Source: Escherichia coli
GTDB lineage: Bacteria > Pseudomonadota > Gammaproteobacteria > Enterobacterales > Enterobacteriaceae
Assembly (NCBI RefSeq): GCF_030013595.1
Contig: NZ_CP122769.1
Length of the DNA stretch: 64,000 nucleotides
Strand: one strand, 5' to 3'
Below are positions 33,001 to 45,000 of the stretch, in pieces. The position numbers are program-made. Position 1 is the stretch's first letter. The number at the start of each line of letters is the position of its first letter.

Positions 33001-36000
33001 TTTTTGTAATGTGGTATGGTGACCCTTCTTTCTTTTTAAGAGAATGCAGTGAAGAAAAGATAAAAGAAGCAGCTAATATTCGAATTTCTCCAGTTTATAC
33101 AGAATAATTCGATATGGGCATTTACTTATGCTTAAAGCTATAGTATAAAAACAATGAGCTTAAATATCAGCTCCCAAATTTGAGTAACTTTGCTTAAAGT
33201 TACTTTCGCGTTAAGCGTTGATTTAGCCGTGAAAAGCGGCCAGCTTAAACAAGCTGTAAGACACCACCGGCAAAATGTCACCTTTGTCGCTGGTGCACTT
33301 CCCATGCCTGAAAAAGGCAATCTGAATTTACCAAACCGTAACTAATTTAGCTCCTCCTGGAGCTATTTTTGTTGCGTACTTCTAATGCCAGATAGTATAA
33401 ATCAGGCGGTTCATAGCTTACGGGAGATGAATGACAGGCTTTGCCTTCGTGTTGAAACAAAAAATTGTTTCTTCCTTCTTACTATATATAGGTGACCCCA
33501 AATGTCTAAAAATAAAGCTCGCAGTAAAGCCCTTCATCAAACCTTTAGTGAAATTATTCCAGAGATGGATAAGGCGCTAAACAAACAGCTCTTAGAAGTT
33601 CTGATGAAATATACAGAACGTGATAATGAACTGATTGTTATTTTGAATGAGGACGGCCCAAATATCATTGAACTTAAGTCTCTTAAGCCTGTGTCTTTGT
33701 TGGCCGAAAAGCTTTCTGCTTATTCAAGCTATTATCATGTGGATGTTGTGGAGCTCGTGGTCAAGAAAATTGATTTCGAAGGAGCTTATAAGCTTCTTAA
33801 AGCTTCCCCAGATGTACCACTTTTTAAAAGCTTAACTGAACTGGATAAATATCTTGTTGAGGAGTTTGAAAAATACGGATTAAATTCATTTCTTGACGTG
33901 GATAATCTGGATTACTCACTTGAAAAAGCCAGTGAACTCAAAAATGAGCAGTTAATAAATTGGGTTTCGGACATCATTTGCAAACGTGAAAAATTAACTT
34001 TACGTAAGCGTTTTGATGTCGCAGTAAAGGCCCACTACGAAAATGTAGAAAAAATGTATGATACCATTCGTCCGTTAATGAAAAAACTGGGTTTCCCAGA
34101 AGATCTCATGACGCACACCTTTAGTGAGTTAAGCGTTTTTGAAACTAAAGGATGGGACCATGCAATAAAATCGAAAATTGAGACTCTCGCTAAGCGTGAA
34201 ACTCAATATTTAGATGATGCGGCTAAAGCAGAGAATCGACGTCTTGTAACAGAGAAGTTGGAGAACTCTTTAGCGATTGCACCAACTAAACCAACAAGAA
34301 ATTGGTTACATATTGCCGGAATTGCCTGTTTGGTAGTCTGCACGTTCATGTATGTAACTAATAAATTTATTTAATCCTGTTAAGGGGGAACCCTAACGGG
34401 GCTTCTCTTTGAACAAATCGAGGAGCGGAAAATGTCATATCTTGAATATATCAATGAAGTAAAAGTGTCCGGGATAGTTATCAGTGCTGTGGAGAAAAAA
34501 ATGACTGACCAGAGTATAGGTTTGTTAATAAAGCTCAAAAATAGGATGAAGACAGAAGTTGATGGTGAAATCACTGAGAGAGAATTTTCAGTTCAAATCA
34601 AGGTGTCGCCTGAAATGTATTCAACCTGTTTCACTGGTATAAATCAGGGTGATGAGTTGATGGTCTCCGGTTATATTGTTGTCGATACTATTATGATTGA
34701 AGGGAGAGAACATCCTCTTGACTACATGAGAGTGGTAGCAACAAGTAAGTTGGCTCACATACCTAAACCTCTAAAAGGTTTTGGACAAAGTAGCTTTAAT
34801 CAGATCTGACATTAAACCCACCCTAAAGGGGAGAAATCCCTTCATGGGATTTCTCCTTTTGGAGTCCCCATGAAACAAAAATTTAGGGCTACTGCAATAA
34901 GTAGTAATCAACTTAGTTTTTTTTCTATACTCGATATAGATGAAGATGAAATAACGCAAATAGTTGATTCACCCAAAGAGCATTTAAATGATGCTTACAC
35001 GTCCGGATTAAACTTTAAATCAGAAGAAAGTAACATTTCTGAGATAAATTATGATTCTGAAAGGCGTGAAAATCACCTTTATGAAAAATCCAAATTACTT
35101 AAAAATCAGATTTTGCATACAATTAATTTTGCAGCAGAAACAGATTATCTATATACGGTTGAAGAATATAACCCAGATTTGGGTGGTCTGGTAATAGAAT
35201 GGACCCCTGAGGATGTGTATGTTGTTTTTCTATCCGCTATGGAAGAGTCTTTGGAAATCATTAAAGAACTAGTGTTGAGGAGAAAGTTATTCTTCAAAGA
35301 TGACAATGGTAATATCACAGTGAATCCACTTTTAGAAGCTGAAACACGGTGGTATATGTCAAAATCATTTGAATACACTTGTTTATCTCATGGACTTGAT
35401 GCATGTGAATTTAGAGCGGAATTAAAATCATGGCTCTATTATCATTCGCATCGTTCGATTAGTGAAAACACGAAATTAGCTGAATGCAGGAATGATGATG
35501 AAATCATTTTGCATGATTGCAATGACGATATGGGCTGGGACATCTTCTTTGATCAGGATTATTTAATGTCAGAAAAAAAACTGGCTGTTAAATGGACTGA
35601 CAGGGAAATTATGGATGTTTACATAAAAGCTTTTAAATCCACATTAGAGTTGTTTGACGAGCTTGTTTCATGTGATCTGTTAACTAAACGAAACGCTTTT
35701 GGCAAGTTAGAAATCAATCCAATATTCGAAAATCATTTTGAATGGATCATGTCTGAAGCTTTTGAAATAGTGGGAAATCATCTTGGTTATAATGTGCCTC
35801 AAATCAGGAAACTGATGGCAACTATTTGCCAAATGAATCTCAAATAAAATGCCACTGGCAAACATCTGCCAGAGGGCGGTGTTTGCATTTTACCGGAGTT
35901 AAAAATGTCTAATGCCGCTATGAAGTTAAATGAAACATCTTCTGATGCTTATGAAAAATTAGAAGCTCTTCTTTCCCCGGATGTTATAAAGTTAAAACAT

Positions 36001-42000: not shown

Positions 42001-45000
42001 GCGACTTCAAAGCCGCATGGTTGAGTTTTTGGCTAAACGATATCCCGCATCAAAGCTGACAATTGAAGTCTTCGAACCAGCACAAGATATTCCTGATGGG
42101 AAAAAGGGTATCGACTGGAACGATGTTCTCCAGTTAACAGGGCAGGATGGATTCCCGATTCACTGGGCTCCTGAATGTCTTAATCAGCTGTAACAACGAT
42201 AACTCCCCCGCTTTTTGCGGGGGGGGTTATCTTATCAATATTATATTTTAAAATTGTATTGATAAGATAACCGCTTTCCTTCGTGATAATTACCTGCCTT
42301 TAAGGTCTTTTCACGGCTGAGATGCTTGCTCAGTTAAATAAATGTGCGGTACTACTGGCTATGGTCGGTTGTATGACATGGTTATTCCATAAACTATTAA
42401 AACCCATAACGGGAGTATTACCGTTATGGTGATGCTCGTCGTTTTACATCGGAGAGCATTTTAATGAATTTTCAAATTAACGAAGTTTTTAATAAATTTG
42501 CTGCTGTTATAAAATCGCGCATCGTCAATGAACCATCGTCATGCTATTTGCTGCATGATAATGAGATAGATATAACGATTTTGAAACATAGCATATTAGA
42601 AAATGACAGAAACCTGTTGTACGTAGTTCGTCCTTCAGGAACGTGTTTGTTGCGTTGTGACAAATATTTCTATCCGAAATATTATCTTCGTTGCCGTGGA
42701 GATTATAAGTCATTCATATATGTCCATCTTGATCTACATAGTGGTGAAGCTAAAGAAATCACATGGGAGCAAGCAGACGATATGCTGTCTAGTCCAGGAA
42801 AACCCCCATTAAAAGGGAATCTTGGACGATTTGAGTATATAAAAGTTGTGGTTGAGGACCTTCGTATTCGAGGTTACGCTGATTATCTTCCTGCGTATAA
42901 TCTTGATGACCTTCGCCGTTTTGCCTTACAGGACGACCGCCCATCCCTTGTCAGATACATTGACAATGTCATGGCAACGGTCTGATTGATTGCTAATTGA
43001 TTTACATATTTTCCCTGATGGCCAACCTGCATCAGGGAGGCCTCAATAACGAATGGAGGCTGTATGAAGTTAGCTACGGACCTGGTAAAAGCTATTTTGA
43101 TTAGAAATGGCGTTGAACCAGTAAATATAAGCGAATCATCTAAGTTATCTTTGAAACAACCACTGACAGAACTTAAATTCAGTTTATATTTGCGAACTGA
43201 GCATTTATCTCACTTCCTACCCGGTTATGTTTATTCTATAAAAGAATGTCCACTGTCATATGACATCGGGATCGAAATTCAGAAAATCTTCGAAAGTTTA
43301 CATTTGTTAAACGAAGAATTTGAATCCCTCGGTTTTGTTTCTGTATGGATAGAAATGCATCAAAGCATTTTTGAACAAAGTCGGTTTAAGAAAAGTAACT
43401 TTACTTTTCGGGAGGAAGAGGTCGAGCTTGCTAAAGGGCTTGTTTGTTCTCACAATTCACAAATAAGTAATGCGGCTTATTTCTGGCTTCAGCACTTTGA
43501 GGAGTTTATGATTTATGTTCGTAATAAGCTTATCGACCTCTTTCGAGAGGCCTATGACCTGATCCTTGGAATGCAGCAAGTATTTTTCATTCGGGAAAAG
43601 GAAGAGCTGTTGAAAACTATAAGTTATGGCGATGAGCTGTATGAGGTGAAATTCATGGCGGCTGAGCTTTACTCTATCGAACAGAACTTAAAGTGTTCTG
43701 AATCGATAAGTACAAAATCTCAAGCTTCGGCATATATTAACCGCATCCGTGAGTTTGTGCGTTCGGGGTGGAGGCAGGGCTATATAGTCTGCCATCATAA
43801 GCGAAGTAATCAAATTTCATCATTGTCATTACCGATGTACTTGAAAGATACGTCAGGCCGAAGTGCTCGAAAGCGAGTAAAACGTCTTATATCTTCTACA
43901 GTTTGTGGTAGAAATAAAGATTTAGGTCTTACAGATTTTTAATTAAATTATACCCATGTGGGGATCACACCCCATATGGGAGTGATCCCTTTTTTTATTG
44001 AGAGAGGATCACATGAAAATTATCGAAAAAATCATTAATGCCTTTTTGGTTGTTCAACATAAAAAAATACAGGTTAAAAACATTACATTTTTAGACAATG
44101 GGCAGGGCATGTTCTCTGGTATGTCTTTTGATGCTGATGTTTCACTGGAGTTTATGTATGAATCAGCAAAAGCATATAGTTCTTGTTTCTTTGATATTCC
44201 CTTTCCAGGTTTTGAAGATGCAAATCTGGAGGAAATTACGAAATTTCAATTAGATGCTTTGAAGCAAAGAAAGAATCATTCTTTCTTTGTTAACCATTTG
44301 AGGTTTCCTATAGTTTTAAGGGAAGGGTGCAAAATCGAAAGAGGAGAAGTCTATTCAATTTCGAATTGCACTTATAATAAAGAAAGATTGCAGTATCTTT
44401 TTTCTCAGGATATTTACGGTAAGTTGTATAATTCCTTAGAGAAAGAATTAAGCTCGTTTTTCTCATTTATCAATGTTGAGGTGCACGAGTTGTTAAAAGA
44501 TGCTGTATGCTTTGCATTAAAAATCCTGAATAAGATATCTTTGGATACACCTGAAAGACTTATTAAAGCTTTTAATTATCGTGACTGGTATTGTAGTTAC
44601 GATGTTGAGCTTTTTAGGAAAGGCTTACCTGGTCATATTCTGGAAGAGCTCATTGCTCCAGATATCTTACTTTCAGACCTTAACGGTTGTAGAAAAATAC
44701 TTAGAAATGCAAAACGATTTCTAAATGGACATACACAAACCAATTGTGTTTATATTAAATATGAATGGTGGTTGGGGCCTGTTGATACCTCACACTCAGC
44801 TAAGTTGATGTCTGACAAAGAAATTAATAACCGAAGTGACTTGAAGAATTTTTCAAAGGTCTTTTTCAAAGAGTGTTTAAGTTCTGGTAAGTCGGAATAT
44901 GAAAACCATCTTAGTGAAAAAGAACATGCGCTTCGCTATAATTATTAATTAAAATTATTTTCTCCCATAGGGATTTCTCCCTATGGGAGAAATCCCTCTA

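What the first reader, a model, noticed from the sequence alone, without database searches (positions are those of the whole stretch)
34432..42193. SSB-like and primase-like proteins suggest a DNA-establishment module
A short OB-fold SSB-like protein and a protein with an N-terminal Cys/His motif plus TOPRIM-like acidic motifs lie downstream of the helicase. Plasmid-encoded SSB, primase and helicase functions are typically used for establishment in the recipient or to bypass host priming. Both calls rest on motif patterns only.
Basis: partly seen in the sequence, partly recalled or inferred. Interest (0 to 1): 0.4.

Follow-up and report, generated by a model that had tools for sequence, protein, structure and literature searches.

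The report
IncHI2 plasmid SSB-fold protein and primase
This stretch of a common IncHI2 resistance plasmid does encode a small protein with the fold of a single-strand-DNA-binding protein and a DnaG-type primase, but both sit inside a larger conserved gene block that in related plasmids helps incoming DNA survive host defences, so the finding is real but only moderately new.

Summary
The window is an IncHI2 conjugative plasmid, and the region lies just after the Tra2 genes trhN and trhI. Both calls hold at fold level.

- **OB protein.** The 125-aa protein (34432-34809) models as an OB fold. Its 50 best PDB matches are all SSB or PriB.

Neither is canonical. The OB protein belongs to an orphan family found only in IncH-like plasmids. 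It has no significant sequence match to SSB or PriB, no Trp, an acidic core and a basic conserved tail. The primase keeps only three of four zinc-ribbon ligands.

These recur upstream of homologous primases in at least 19 of 80 species-level loci. They match the IncC/SXT 'hde' locus, which lies after traN and acts in recipients against restriction and CRISPR.

A role in establishment after entry is plausible but untested. This is a new variant of known kinds and of moderate interest.

The parts
31323..33107 (+). Context: UvrD-type SF1 helicase, named TrhI (IncHI-type conjugal transfer helicase) in RefSeq.
   Evidence: Pfam UvrD-helicase 9e-33 and UvrD_C 4e-32. RefSeq annotation of the identical plasmid.
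33502..34374 (+). 290-aa protein of unknown function with a hydrophobic C-terminus. It is conserved at this position in a distant IncH-like relative.
   Evidence: No family match in Pfam, PHROG, NCBIfam or PADLOC. A 293-aa gene occupies the same position in L003.
34432..34809 (+). 125-aa OB-fold protein with the SSB/PriB fold. It belongs to an orphan family restricted to IncH-like plasmids, has an acidic core, and carries a conserved basic C-terminal tail (AHIPKPxKGFGxSSFxQ).
   Evidence: AF2 pLDDT 84.6 with OB topology. The Foldseek top 50 are all SSB or PriB. The profile's best PDB hit is D. radiodurans SSB at E 0.022. There are no Pfam, PHROG, NCBIfam or PADLOC hits. The family stays closed in searches of 5.8e9 and 1.8e9 proteins. 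Composition is and conservation.
34870..35847 (+). 325-aa acidic protein of unknown function made of an internal tandem duplication. It occupies the slot that holds bet/exo (RecT/YqaJ) in relatives.
   Evidence: Self-BLAST of the two halves gives 30% identity, E 5e-11. No family or PDB match. No similarity to IncC Vcrx090.
35905..36963 (+). MoxR/CbbQ/CobS-like AAA_5 ATPase with Walker A (GESGSGKT) and Walker B (LLDEVD) motifs. It is a homologue of IncC Vcrx089.
   Evidence: Pfam AAA_5 5e-28. BLASTP against pKAZ3 Vcrx089 gives 27% identity over 275 aa, E 3e-27. The motifs are read from the sequence.
37095..37268 (+). Small 57-aa ORF, annotated in RefSeq. A 74-aa gene sits in the same slot in L003.
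37331..38458 (+). DUF3150 protein. The annotated ATG at 37331 follows a GGAG ribosome-binding site; the open frame starts at TTG 37319.
   Evidence: Pfam DUF3150 2e-23. Homology to the IncC DUF3150 gene downstream of exo is E 3e-5.
38536..40554 (+). 672-aa CobT-like protein. It has an N-terminal conserved HExxH motif (H70-E-A-G-H74), an acidic low-complexity middle, and a C-terminal VWA domain with an intact MIDAS motif (D509-I-S-A-S).
   Evidence: Pfam VWA 2e-7. PHROG CobT 2e-4. BLASTP against the L012 CobT/VWA gives 8e-14.
40626..40847 (+). 73-aa protein of unknown function, conserved in L003 as a 72-aa gene.
   Evidence: No family match.
40961..42193 (+). 410-aa DnaG-type Toprim primase of the mobile-element clade. 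It has a degenerate zinc-ribbon domain (C56, C79-x2-H82), DUF7146 as the N-terminal subdomain of the polymerase core, and a Toprim_3 domain (E280, D330xD332, D385-W-N-D388).
   Evidence: Family matches. Alignment. Model. Fold searches. Zinc-ligand tally. The 'DaN-' synapomorphy is described in PMC5512222.
42203..42225 (+). GC-rich hairpin (9 pairs, 8 of them G-C) followed by a T-rich tail, directly after the primase stop codon. It is the likely 3' end of the transcription unit.

Best explanation
The 7.8-kb stretch is the IncHI2 version of a conserved backbone block that MOBH/MPF_F conjugative elements (IncC, SXT/R391, IncH) carry right after traN. It serves the incoming DNA in a new host.

**What is shown**
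- It encodes, in one direction and closely spaced, seven larger products: an SSB/PriB-fold OB protein; a duplicated-domain protein; a MoxR-type AAA_5 ATPase homologous to IncC Vcrx089; DUF3150; an HExxH-plus-VWA protein; a 73-aa protein; and a DnaG-type Toprim primase whose catalytic residues are intact.
- A small 57-aa ORF also lies between the ATPase and DUF3150 genes.

**What is inferred**
- The primase lays RNA primers on the transferred single strand. Complementary-strand synthesis then does not depend on host priming, as described for the related plasmid primases TraC1 and SogL.
- The OB protein stands in for the canonical Ssb that relatives have at this position. It either coats ssDNA or acts as an adaptor through its conserved basic tail.
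- The ATPase / DUF3150 / VWA part counters host restriction, as the IncC homologue does.
- Bet/Exo-type break repair is absent from the IncHI2 version.
For: **Identity and position**
- The region is 100% identical to IncHI2 plasmids typed MOBH/MPF_F, and lies after trhU, trhN and trhI.

**Fold and family**
- OB protein.
- E280, D330, D332 and D385 are invariant in 35 homologues. The D-W-N-D motif is the signature that Iyer et al. give for catalytically active mobile-element primases.
- Phage homologues are annotated as primases next to helicases.

**The block is a unit**
- Gene order is kept in L003, where the OB proteins are about 40% identical.
- A metagenomic contig carries SSB-RecT-YqaJ-AAA_5-x-DUF3150-x-CobT/VWA-...-RadC-primase.
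- L006 carries SSB...AAA_5-x-DUF3150-VWA-x-primase.
- Aeromonas pAeme5 carries toprim-AAA-DUF3150-VWA in a permuted order.
- In a one-genome-per-species scan, 11 of 49 primase loci with at least 6 kb of upstream sequence have DUF3150 and VWA upstream on the same strand. Eight further truncated loci show VWA, DUF3150 or RadC directly upstream.

**Link to IncC and SXT**
- pKAZ3 has TraU-TraN-...-AAA_5-302aa-ssb-bet-exo-DUF3150-VWA.
- The AAA_5 pair scores E 3e-27 and the DUF3150 pair E 3e-5.
- An SXT/R391-type ICE has RadC-primase just before TraF/TraH.

**Function of the homologous locus**
- vcrx089-090 protect against type I restriction and ssb-bet-exo against CRISPR cuts. Complementation works in the recipient and not in the donor (PMC7498323).
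Against: - No experiment bears on the IncHI2 genes. The literature I could reach calls the area a 'hypothetical protein region'.
- The OB protein lacks SSB and PriB sequence features: no Pfam hit, hhalign E 0.64 and 0.11, no Trp, and a core pI of 5.1. Its invariant residues are mostly acidic.
- The zinc ribbon has lost ligand 2, and some family members have lost all four ligands. In DnaG and T7 gp4 that domain is needed for de novo priming; this is my own knowledge, not tested here.
- The IncC anti-restriction activity was mapped to Vcrx089 plus Vcrx090, and I found no Vcrx090 homologue here.
- The primase is not linked to the trio in IncC or in most other loci, so the coupling is frequent but not obligatory.
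- The block lies by Tra2, and I did not locate oriT, so early entry is not shown.
Confidence: 0.55

Rival explanations
1. The OB protein is not an ssDNA-binding protein. It has kept the SSB fold but works as a protein adaptor or client of the AAA_5/VWA machine, for example by offering an acidic residue to the VWA MIDAS site or by docking partners through its basic tail. On this reading, 'SSB-like' describes ancestry and not function.
For: - The core is acidic (pI 5.1), has no Trp, and the tail is basic (pI 10.3).
- The invariant or near-invariant residues are largely acidic: E9, E49, D74, E75 and D85.
- Reading the D. radiodurans SSB alignment by eye against E. coli SSB numbering recalled from my own knowledge, the positions equivalent to W40, F60 and W88 are not aromatic, and the beta4-beta5 loop is acidic. 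This is an inspection, not a computed result.
- There is no sequence-level homology to SSB, PriB or IncC Ssb.
- The MIDAS motif of the neighbouring VWA protein is intact.
Against: - It sits exactly where relatives carry a bona fide PF00436 SSB, upstream of the AAA_5 gene.
- The best and only near-significant sequence match is an SSB domain, covering residues 6-107.
- Every one of the 50 best structural matches is an ssDNA-binding SSB or PriB.
- Net charge alone does not exclude DNA binding.
Confidence: 0.3
2. The block serves vegetative replication or repair of the large plasmid in any host, not establishment after transfer. The primase would be the plasmid's own lagging-strand or restart primase, working with the UvrD-type helicase and the OB protein like a phage replication module.
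For: - Phage homologues of the primase lie next to helicases in replication modules.
- A helicase gene lies upstream here and in pAeme5.
- The block sits near the partition genes parA/parB/parM and not near a recognised leading region.
Against: - The helicase is annotated as a transfer gene, and the block follows the mating-pair genes in IncH, IncC and SXT alike.
- The homologous IncC genes are dispensable for maintenance and act in the recipient.
- Iyer et al. report Toprim primases of this kind as tied to elements with T4SS transfer systems.
Confidence: 0.2
3. The Toprim protein is not a primase. With a decayed zinc ribbon, it uses its TOPRIM metal site as a nuclease or in some other DNA-processing role.
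For: - Ligand 2 of the zinc ribbon is lost in the IncH clade, and all four ligands are lost in P0043 and P0044.
- Pfam does not detect PF08273 in this protein.
- TOPRIM domains also occur in nucleases and topoisomerases (ranks 9-29).
Against: - The primase-clade D-a-N-acidic motif is present and invariant.
Confidence: 0.1

Closest known systems
Plasmid and satellite-phage Toprim primases: RP4 TraC1, R64/ColIb-P9 Sog, and the phage P4 alpha primase domain (Pfam Zn_Ribbon_Prim + Toprim_3)
   Same: - The protein has a DnaG-type core with a TOPRIM domain.
- The AEGIENA motif corresponds to the 'EGYATA' motif of these primases; that correspondence is from my own knowledge.
- The D-a-N-acidic signature of mobile-element primases is present.
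- More distant homologues carry PF08273, the P4-alpha-type zinc ribbon.
- It is encoded on a T4SS conjugative element.
   Different: - It is a stand-alone 410-aa protein, not fused to other domains.
- The zinc ribbon keeps three of four ligands.
- It lies next to Tra2, inside the AAA_5/DUF3150/VWA block.
- No activity or transfer data exist.
- I did not align it directly with TraC, Sog or P4 alpha.
IncC pVCR94 host-defence-evasion (hde) operon vcrx089-093 plus the downstream DUF3150 and VWA genes; the equivalent SXT/R391 block (Roy et al. 2020, PMC7498323)
   Same: - The position after traU-traN is the same.
- The AAA_5 ATPase is homologous to Vcrx089 (E 3e-27).
- DUF3150 and VWA genes follow.
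- An SSB-fold gene lies in the same block.
   Different: - IncHI2 has no Bet/RecT or Exo/YqaJ (none detected) and no Vcrx090 homologue.
- The PF00436 Ssb is replaced by an orphan OB protein.
- Gene order differs: the OB gene comes before the ATPase.
- A primase ends the block here, as it does in SXT-type ICEs, whereas in IncC the primase lies elsewhere.
Bacterial SSB (PF00436) and PriB
   Same: - It is a single OB fold with beta1-3, a helix, then beta4-5.
- TM-scores normalised to the target are 0.72-0.81.
- All 50 top PDB matches belong to this family.
- Its size is close to PriB.
- JGI's pipeline names it 'primosomal replication protein N'.
   Different: - There is no significant sequence similarity.
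- It has no Trp, an acidic core and an acidic beta4-beta5 loop.
- The C-terminal tail is basic and conserved, rather than the acidic DDDIPF-type tip.
MoxR/CbbQ-type AAA+ ATPase with a VWA partner (CbbQ-CbbO, NorQ-NorD, CobS-CobT)
   Same: - An AAA_5 ATPase is paired with a VWA protein that has an intact MIDAS motif.
- CobS and CobT profiles give weak hits.
   Different: - The scores lie far below the CobS/CobT family cut-offs (34 bits against 558).
- A DUF3150 gene lies between the two.
- The VWA protein carries an N-terminal HExxH motif.
- The context is a mobile element and not a metabolic operon.

Membership tests
DnaG-type (TOPRIM) primase, mobile-element clade (Pfam Toprim_3 / DUF7146) | TOPRIM domain with the conserved Glu and the DxD acidic pair | tested here: met
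   Toprim_3 scores 2.3e-12. E280, D330 and D332 are invariant in 35 homologues.
DnaG-type (TOPRIM) primase, mobile-element clade (Pfam Toprim_3 / DUF7146) | D-aromatic-N-acidic motif before strand 4, the synapomorphy of active mobile-element primases (Iyer et al. 2017) | tested here: met
   D385 is invariant, and W386, N387 and D388 are conserved in at least 90% of sequences. The motif definition is quoted.
DnaG-type (TOPRIM) primase, mobile-element clade (Pfam Toprim_3 / DUF7146) | Polymerase-core subdomain N-terminal to TOPRIM, which sets primases apart from other TOPRIM enzymes | tested here: met
DnaG-type (TOPRIM) primase, mobile-element clade (Pfam Toprim_3 / DUF7146) | Four-ligand zinc ribbon (C-x2-[CH] ... 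C-x2-C) at the N-terminus | tested here: not met
DnaG-type (TOPRIM) primase, mobile-element clade (Pfam Toprim_3 / DUF7146) | Template-dependent primer synthesis; transfer into the recipient | not testable with these tools
   This needs biochemical and mating assays.
Bacterial SSB (PF00436) | OB fold of the SSB/PriB type | tested here: met
   pLDDT is 84.6 with OB topology. The Foldseek top 50 are all SSB or PriB.
Bacterial SSB (PF00436) | Significant match to the family profile or to member sequences | tested here: not met
   There is no Pfam, NCBIfam or PHROG hit. phmmer against PDB finds nothing. The best profile hit against PDB is E 0.022. hhalign gives E 0.64 against E. coli SSB and 0.54 against IncC Ssb. 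The profile search of 5.8e9 proteins reaches no PF00436 protein.
Bacterial SSB (PF00436) | Aromatic ssDNA-stacking residues and an acidic C-terminal tip (DDDIPF type) | tested here: not met
   There is no Trp, and the tail KLAHIPKPLKGFGQSSFNQI is basic with pI 10.3. The aromatic positions were judged by eye from the alignment, using E. coli SSB numbering recalled from my own knowledge.
Bacterial SSB (PF00436) | High-affinity ssDNA binding | not testable with these tools
   This needs a gel-shift or fluorescence assay.
PriB (primosomal replication protein N) | Sequence membership and a basic beta4-beta5 loop | tested here: not met
   BLASTP finds no alignment. hhalign gives E 0.11, with 23% identity over 79 columns in register. 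The loop sequence VVDTIMIEGREHPLDY is acidic. Only an automated JGI name says PriB.
hde (host defence evasion) locus of IncC / SXT-R391 | Position after traN; AAA_5 ATPase homologous to Vcrx089; DUF3150 and VWA genes in the same block | tested here: met
   E 3e-27; E 3e-5.
hde (host defence evasion) locus of IncC / SXT-R391 | Vcrx090 partner; PF00436 Ssb; Bet (RecT) and Exo (YqaJ) | tested here: not met
   p325 against Vcrx090 shows no similarity. No SSB, RecT or YqaJ ORF was found in the window, using an E. coli/L012 SSB model and single-sequence RecT and YqaJ HMMs from L012, and tblastn with E. coli SSB. These searches have limited sensitivity.
hde (host defence evasion) locus of IncC / SXT-R391 | Protection against restriction or CRISPR on entry, complemented in the recipient | not testable with these tools
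   The phenotype was shown only for IncC and R391 (PMC7498323).

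The most novel reading that the evidence does not exclude
The recurrent block [SSB or OB protein] - AAA_5 ATPase - DUF3150 - HExxH/VWA protein - (RadC) - Toprim primase is one uncharacterised multi-protein 'entry machine' of conjugative elements. In it, a MoxR-type ATPase and a VWA-peptidase would remodel or destroy host factors at the moment the incoming single strand is primed, so that priming and defence evasion are physically coupled. The IncH orphan OB protein, with its inverted charge pattern and conserved basic tail, would be a dedicated adaptor of this machine and not a generic SSB.
Probability: 0.15. Interest if true: 0.65.

Novelty: new variant of a known kind. 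Interest (0 to 1): 0.4.

Why it matters
IncHI2 plasmids are major carriers of multidrug and colistin resistance in Escherichia, Salmonella and Enterobacter. About 20 kb of their backbone next to Tra2 is still labelled hypothetical. This work has three practical consequences.

- **Testable roles.** Part of that dark region now has assignable functions: a primase, an SSB-fold protein, and a homologue of an IncC ATPase shown experimentally to be involved in anti-restriction.
- **Transfer of knowledge.** IncH can now be linked to the IncC/SXT 'hde' work, so established mating assays can be applied directly.
- **A wider association.** A primase, an AAA_5 ATPase, DUF3150 and an HExxH-VWA protein recur together in many elements. 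This points to a function at DNA entry that nobody has characterised.

If these genes widen host range, they are candidate targets for limiting plasmid spread.

Tried and rejected
**OB protein**
- Sequence-only identification failed in every library: Pfam, PHROG, NCBIfam and PADLOC, and PDB by phmmer.
- Bridging the family to PF00436 with a full HMMER scan and a profile search found only IncH-like relatives. Three repetitive proteins also appeared, which I judged spurious.

**Neighbouring genes**
- p325 against IncC Vcrx090 shows no similarity.
- The minus-strand lipoprotein after trhN against its IncC counterpart shares only the lipobox.
- DUF3150 and p325 against PDB sequences found nothing.
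- PADLOC finds no known defence system. The helicase matches GajB models only as a generic UvrD protein.

**Repeats and signals**
- The repeat search of 33100-42500 found nothing beyond one 23-nt palindrome.
- Promoter-like sites are not enriched: 23 found against 31.5 expected.

**Literature**
- No paper mentions DUF7146, and only one mentions DUF3150, which I did not read. None pairs IncHI2 with toprim.
- Of 476 papers matching the IncHI / Tn-seq / TraDIS / transposon-mutagenesis / conjugation search, none of the 15 top-ranked ones listed mentioned IncHI.
- Lanka and Barth 1981 is not held.
- My recollection that SXT annotations use the name 'cobS' could not be confirmed, so I do not rely on it.

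**Ideas dropped or left untested**
- I first thought the roughly 300-aa genes downstream formed a paralogue array. Only one pair is detectably related.
- I did not locate oriT or test whether the block enters the recipient early.

Full report
**What the window is**

The region 34432-42193 is 100% identical to many IncHI2 plasmids of Escherichia, Salmonella and Enterobacter. In all, 1,406 plasmid records match it, and 1,104 of them cover at least 80% of the region. In the RefSeq copy pSE08-00436-1 (IncHI2A, MOBH relaxase, MPF_F mating apparatus) it follows the Tra2 genes trhF, trbC-like, trhU, trhN and the helicase gene trhI. It is annotated only as hypothetical proteins, 'AAA family ATPase', 'DUF3150', 'VWA' and 'toprim domain-containing protein'. 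A paper on IncHI2 evolution calls the area between terY2 and trhI a 'hypothetical protein region'.

**Checking the observation**

All genes from 31323 to 42193 are on the + strand, and most are separated by 58-114 bases.

*The 125-aa protein (34432-34809)*
- It has no hit in Pfam, PHROGs, NCBIfam or PADLOC, and none in PDB by phmmer.
- An AlphaFold2 model from 12 homologues has mean pLDDT 84.6 and the classical OB topology.
- The 50 best Foldseek matches in the PDB are all SSB or PriB, with E 4e-6 to 7e-5.
- A profile of the family finds the second OB domain of Deinococcus SSB as its best PDB sequence match. That match covers residues 6-107 at a marginal E of 0.022.
- JGI's pipeline names the protein 'primosomal replication protein N'.

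*The 410-aa protein (40961-42193; the open frame begins at GTG 40889)*
- It matches DUF7146, Toprim_3 and PHROG 510 'DNA primase'.
- Its model has pLDDT 90.2.
- E280, D330, D332 and D385 are invariant in 35 homologues.

**Where the proteins depart from the textbook**

*OB family*
- The family is closed. A full HMMER scan of 1.8 billion representatives and a profile search of 5.8 billion proteins find only about 40 clusters, all from IncH-like plasmids and none with a Pfam domain.
- hhalign against E. coli SSB, PriB and IncC Ssb is not significant, at E 0.64, 0.11 and 0.54.
- The protein has no tryptophan. Residues 1-110 have pI 5.1.
- The invariant or near-invariant residues include E9, E49, D74, E75 and D85.
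- The last 20 residues form a conserved basic tail, AHIPKPxKGFGxSSFxQ, with pI 10.3. This is the reverse of the acidic tip of SSB.
- So 'SSB-like' is shown for the fold and not for the function.

*Primase*
- More distant homologues carry the P4-alpha-type zinc ribbon PF08273, with C-P-x-[C/H] ... C-x2-C.
- The IncHI2 protein has C56-P-F-T ... C79-A-I-H82, so one ligand is lost.
- Two other family members have lost all four ligands while keeping the catalytic residues.
- The D385-W-N-D388 motif is the signature that Iyer et al. [quoted passage not shown]

**What lies between, and why it matters**

- a 325-aa protein that is an internal duplication;
- an AAA_5 ATPase with intact Walker motifs;
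- a 57-aa ORF;
- DUF3150;
- a 672-aa VWA protein with an intact MIDAS motif and a conserved N-terminal HExxH motif.

A 73-aa gene then precedes the primase. This arrangement is not an IncHI2 peculiarity.
- A relative whose OB protein is about 40% identical keeps the whole order from TrbC to the primase.
- A metagenomic contig carries SSB (PF00436) - RecT - YqaJ - AAA_5 - x - DUF3150 - x - CobT/VWA - ... - RadC - zinc-ribbon/DUF7146/Toprim_3.
- Another contig carries SSB ... AAA_5 - x - DUF3150 - VWA - x - primase.
- Aeromonas plasmid pAeme5 has toprim - AAA - DUF3150 - VWA in a permuted order.

To measure the link, I scanned one genome per species for relatives of the primase. I then searched the 80 loci with HMMs built from the genes above.
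- Of 49 loci with at least 6 kb of upstream sequence, 11 have DUF3150 and VWA upstream on the same strand. Six of those also have the ATPase, and six of the 49 loci have SSB.
- Eight further loci with truncated flanks show VWA, DUF3150 or RadC immediately upstream.
- The hosts are mostly Gamma- and Betaproteobacteria, but they also include a MAG labelled Propionibacterium and a Caldisericota MAG.
- The link is therefore frequent but not obligatory. IncC, an Alcaligenes element, a phage and a Bradyrhizobium element carry the primase in other contexts.

**Connection to known biology**

In the IncC plasmid pKAZ3 the order is TraU - TraN - ... - AAA_5 - 302 aa - ssb - bet - exo - DUF3150 - VWA. 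This is the hde (host defence evasion) operon of Roy et al. 2020.
- vcrx089 (AAA_5 + CbbQ_C) and vcrx090 protect against type I restriction.
- ssb-bet-exo repair CRISPR-Cas cuts.
- Both activities are complemented in the recipient and not in the donor.
- Roy et al. primed their reverse transcription at the 3' end of vcrx094, the gene after exo. That places it on the same transcript.
- The gene at that position in pKAZ3 is annotated DUF3150, with the VWA gene next. I did not verify the vcrx numbering.

The IncHI2 ATPase is homologous to Vcrx089 (27% identity over 275 residues, E 3e-27). The two DUF3150 proteins are also homologous (E 3e-5).

In an SXT/R391-type ICE of Marinomonas fungiae, RadC and a zinc-ribbon/DUF7146/Toprim_3 primase end the conserved block just before TraF and TraH. 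The ICEs of that strain are described in PMC5122569.

The IncHI2 region is thus the IncH version of a block shared by MOBH/MPF_F elements after traN. It differs in four ways:
- no Bet/Exo (none detected);
- no Vcrx090 homologue;
- an orphan OB protein where relatives have Ssb;
- the primase kept at the 3' end.

**How it most likely works**

*Shown:* the folds, the intact catalytic, Walker and MIDAS motifs, the conserved gene order, and the homology to the IncC genes.

*Inferred:*
- The primase primes the transferred single strand, as reported for TraC1 and SogL.
- The OB protein replaces Ssb, either on ssDNA or as an adaptor through its tail.
- The ATPase/DUF3150/VWA part acts against host restriction.

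I put the composite at about 0.55. The rivals are:
- the OB protein is a protein adaptor and not an ssDNA binder (0.3);
- the block serves vegetative replication (0.2);
- the Toprim protein is not a primase (0.1).

The rivals overlap with parts of the main reading and with each other, so these figures are not meant to sum to one.

**Verdict**

The primase is a member of a known clade with a degenerate zinc ribbon. The OB protein is a structurally recognisable but sequence-orphan relative of SSB/PriB. The block is a variant of the IncC/SXT hde region. The finding is useful for annotating a clinically important plasmid backbone and yields clear experiments, but it is not a new kind of system. 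Interest 0.4.

Noticed in passing
window 38536-40554 (motif at residues 70-74, DNA about 38743-38757): The VWA/CobT-like protein carries an N-terminal HExxH motif (CHEAGHGRYTD). The motif is kept at the same position in all five reference homologues and in 12 of the 14 further homologues whose N-terminus is present. The MIDAS motif is also intact. Pfam finds nothing in residues 1-255. This suggests a zincin-type peptidase fused to VWA.
   Followed up: partly
window 34870-35847: The 325-aa acidic protein is an internal tandem duplication. Residues 81-168 align with residues 213-299 at 30% identity, E 5e-11. It has no family or PDB match.
   Followed up: partly
window 45690-47790 approx.: A two-gene insertion (390-aa ORF at 45762-46934 and an overlapping 266-aa ORF at 46931-47731), which by its layout I take to be an IS21-type IstA/IstB element. 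I ran no family search on it. It sits directly after 45688 and truncates to 223 aa a gene that is 921 nt in pSE08-00436-1.
   Followed up: no
window 42225-42272: A 23-nt inverted repeat (87% complementary, 2-nt spacer) lies immediately after the primase terminator hairpin, in the 271-nt gap before the next gene. It could be an operator.
   Followed up: no
window 30200-43100: Terminator-like hairpins are enriched: 23 found against 9.8 +/- 3.3 in shuffles. Several lie in + strand intergenic gaps, at 33348, 37282, 40568, 40853 and 42203. Promoter-like sites are not enriched.
   Followed up: no
window 37313-37319 versus L001: The only difference from pSE08-00436-1 across the 7.8 kb is one T in the T-run after the hairpin at 37282-37312 (T7 against T8), upstream of the DUF3150 start.
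   Followed up: yes
window 48134-50200: Two adjacent genes of 312 and 320 aa are paralogues (27% identity, E 3e-37). The other roughly 300-aa genes between 43064 and 45688 are not detectably related to them or to each other by BLASTP.
   Followed up: partly
L009 (phage-like contig) and phage records H94-H109: Homologues of this primase occur in phages next to DEAD-box helicases, including Stx-converting phages. The 2017 survey states that Toprim primases of this kind are never phage-encoded.
   Followed up: no
L037 (Aestuariibacter sp.): One element has SSB - RecT - YqaJ - RadC - primase with no AAA_5, DUF3150 or VWA genes detected. The trio can therefore be absent while the flanking genes stay together.
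   Followed up: no
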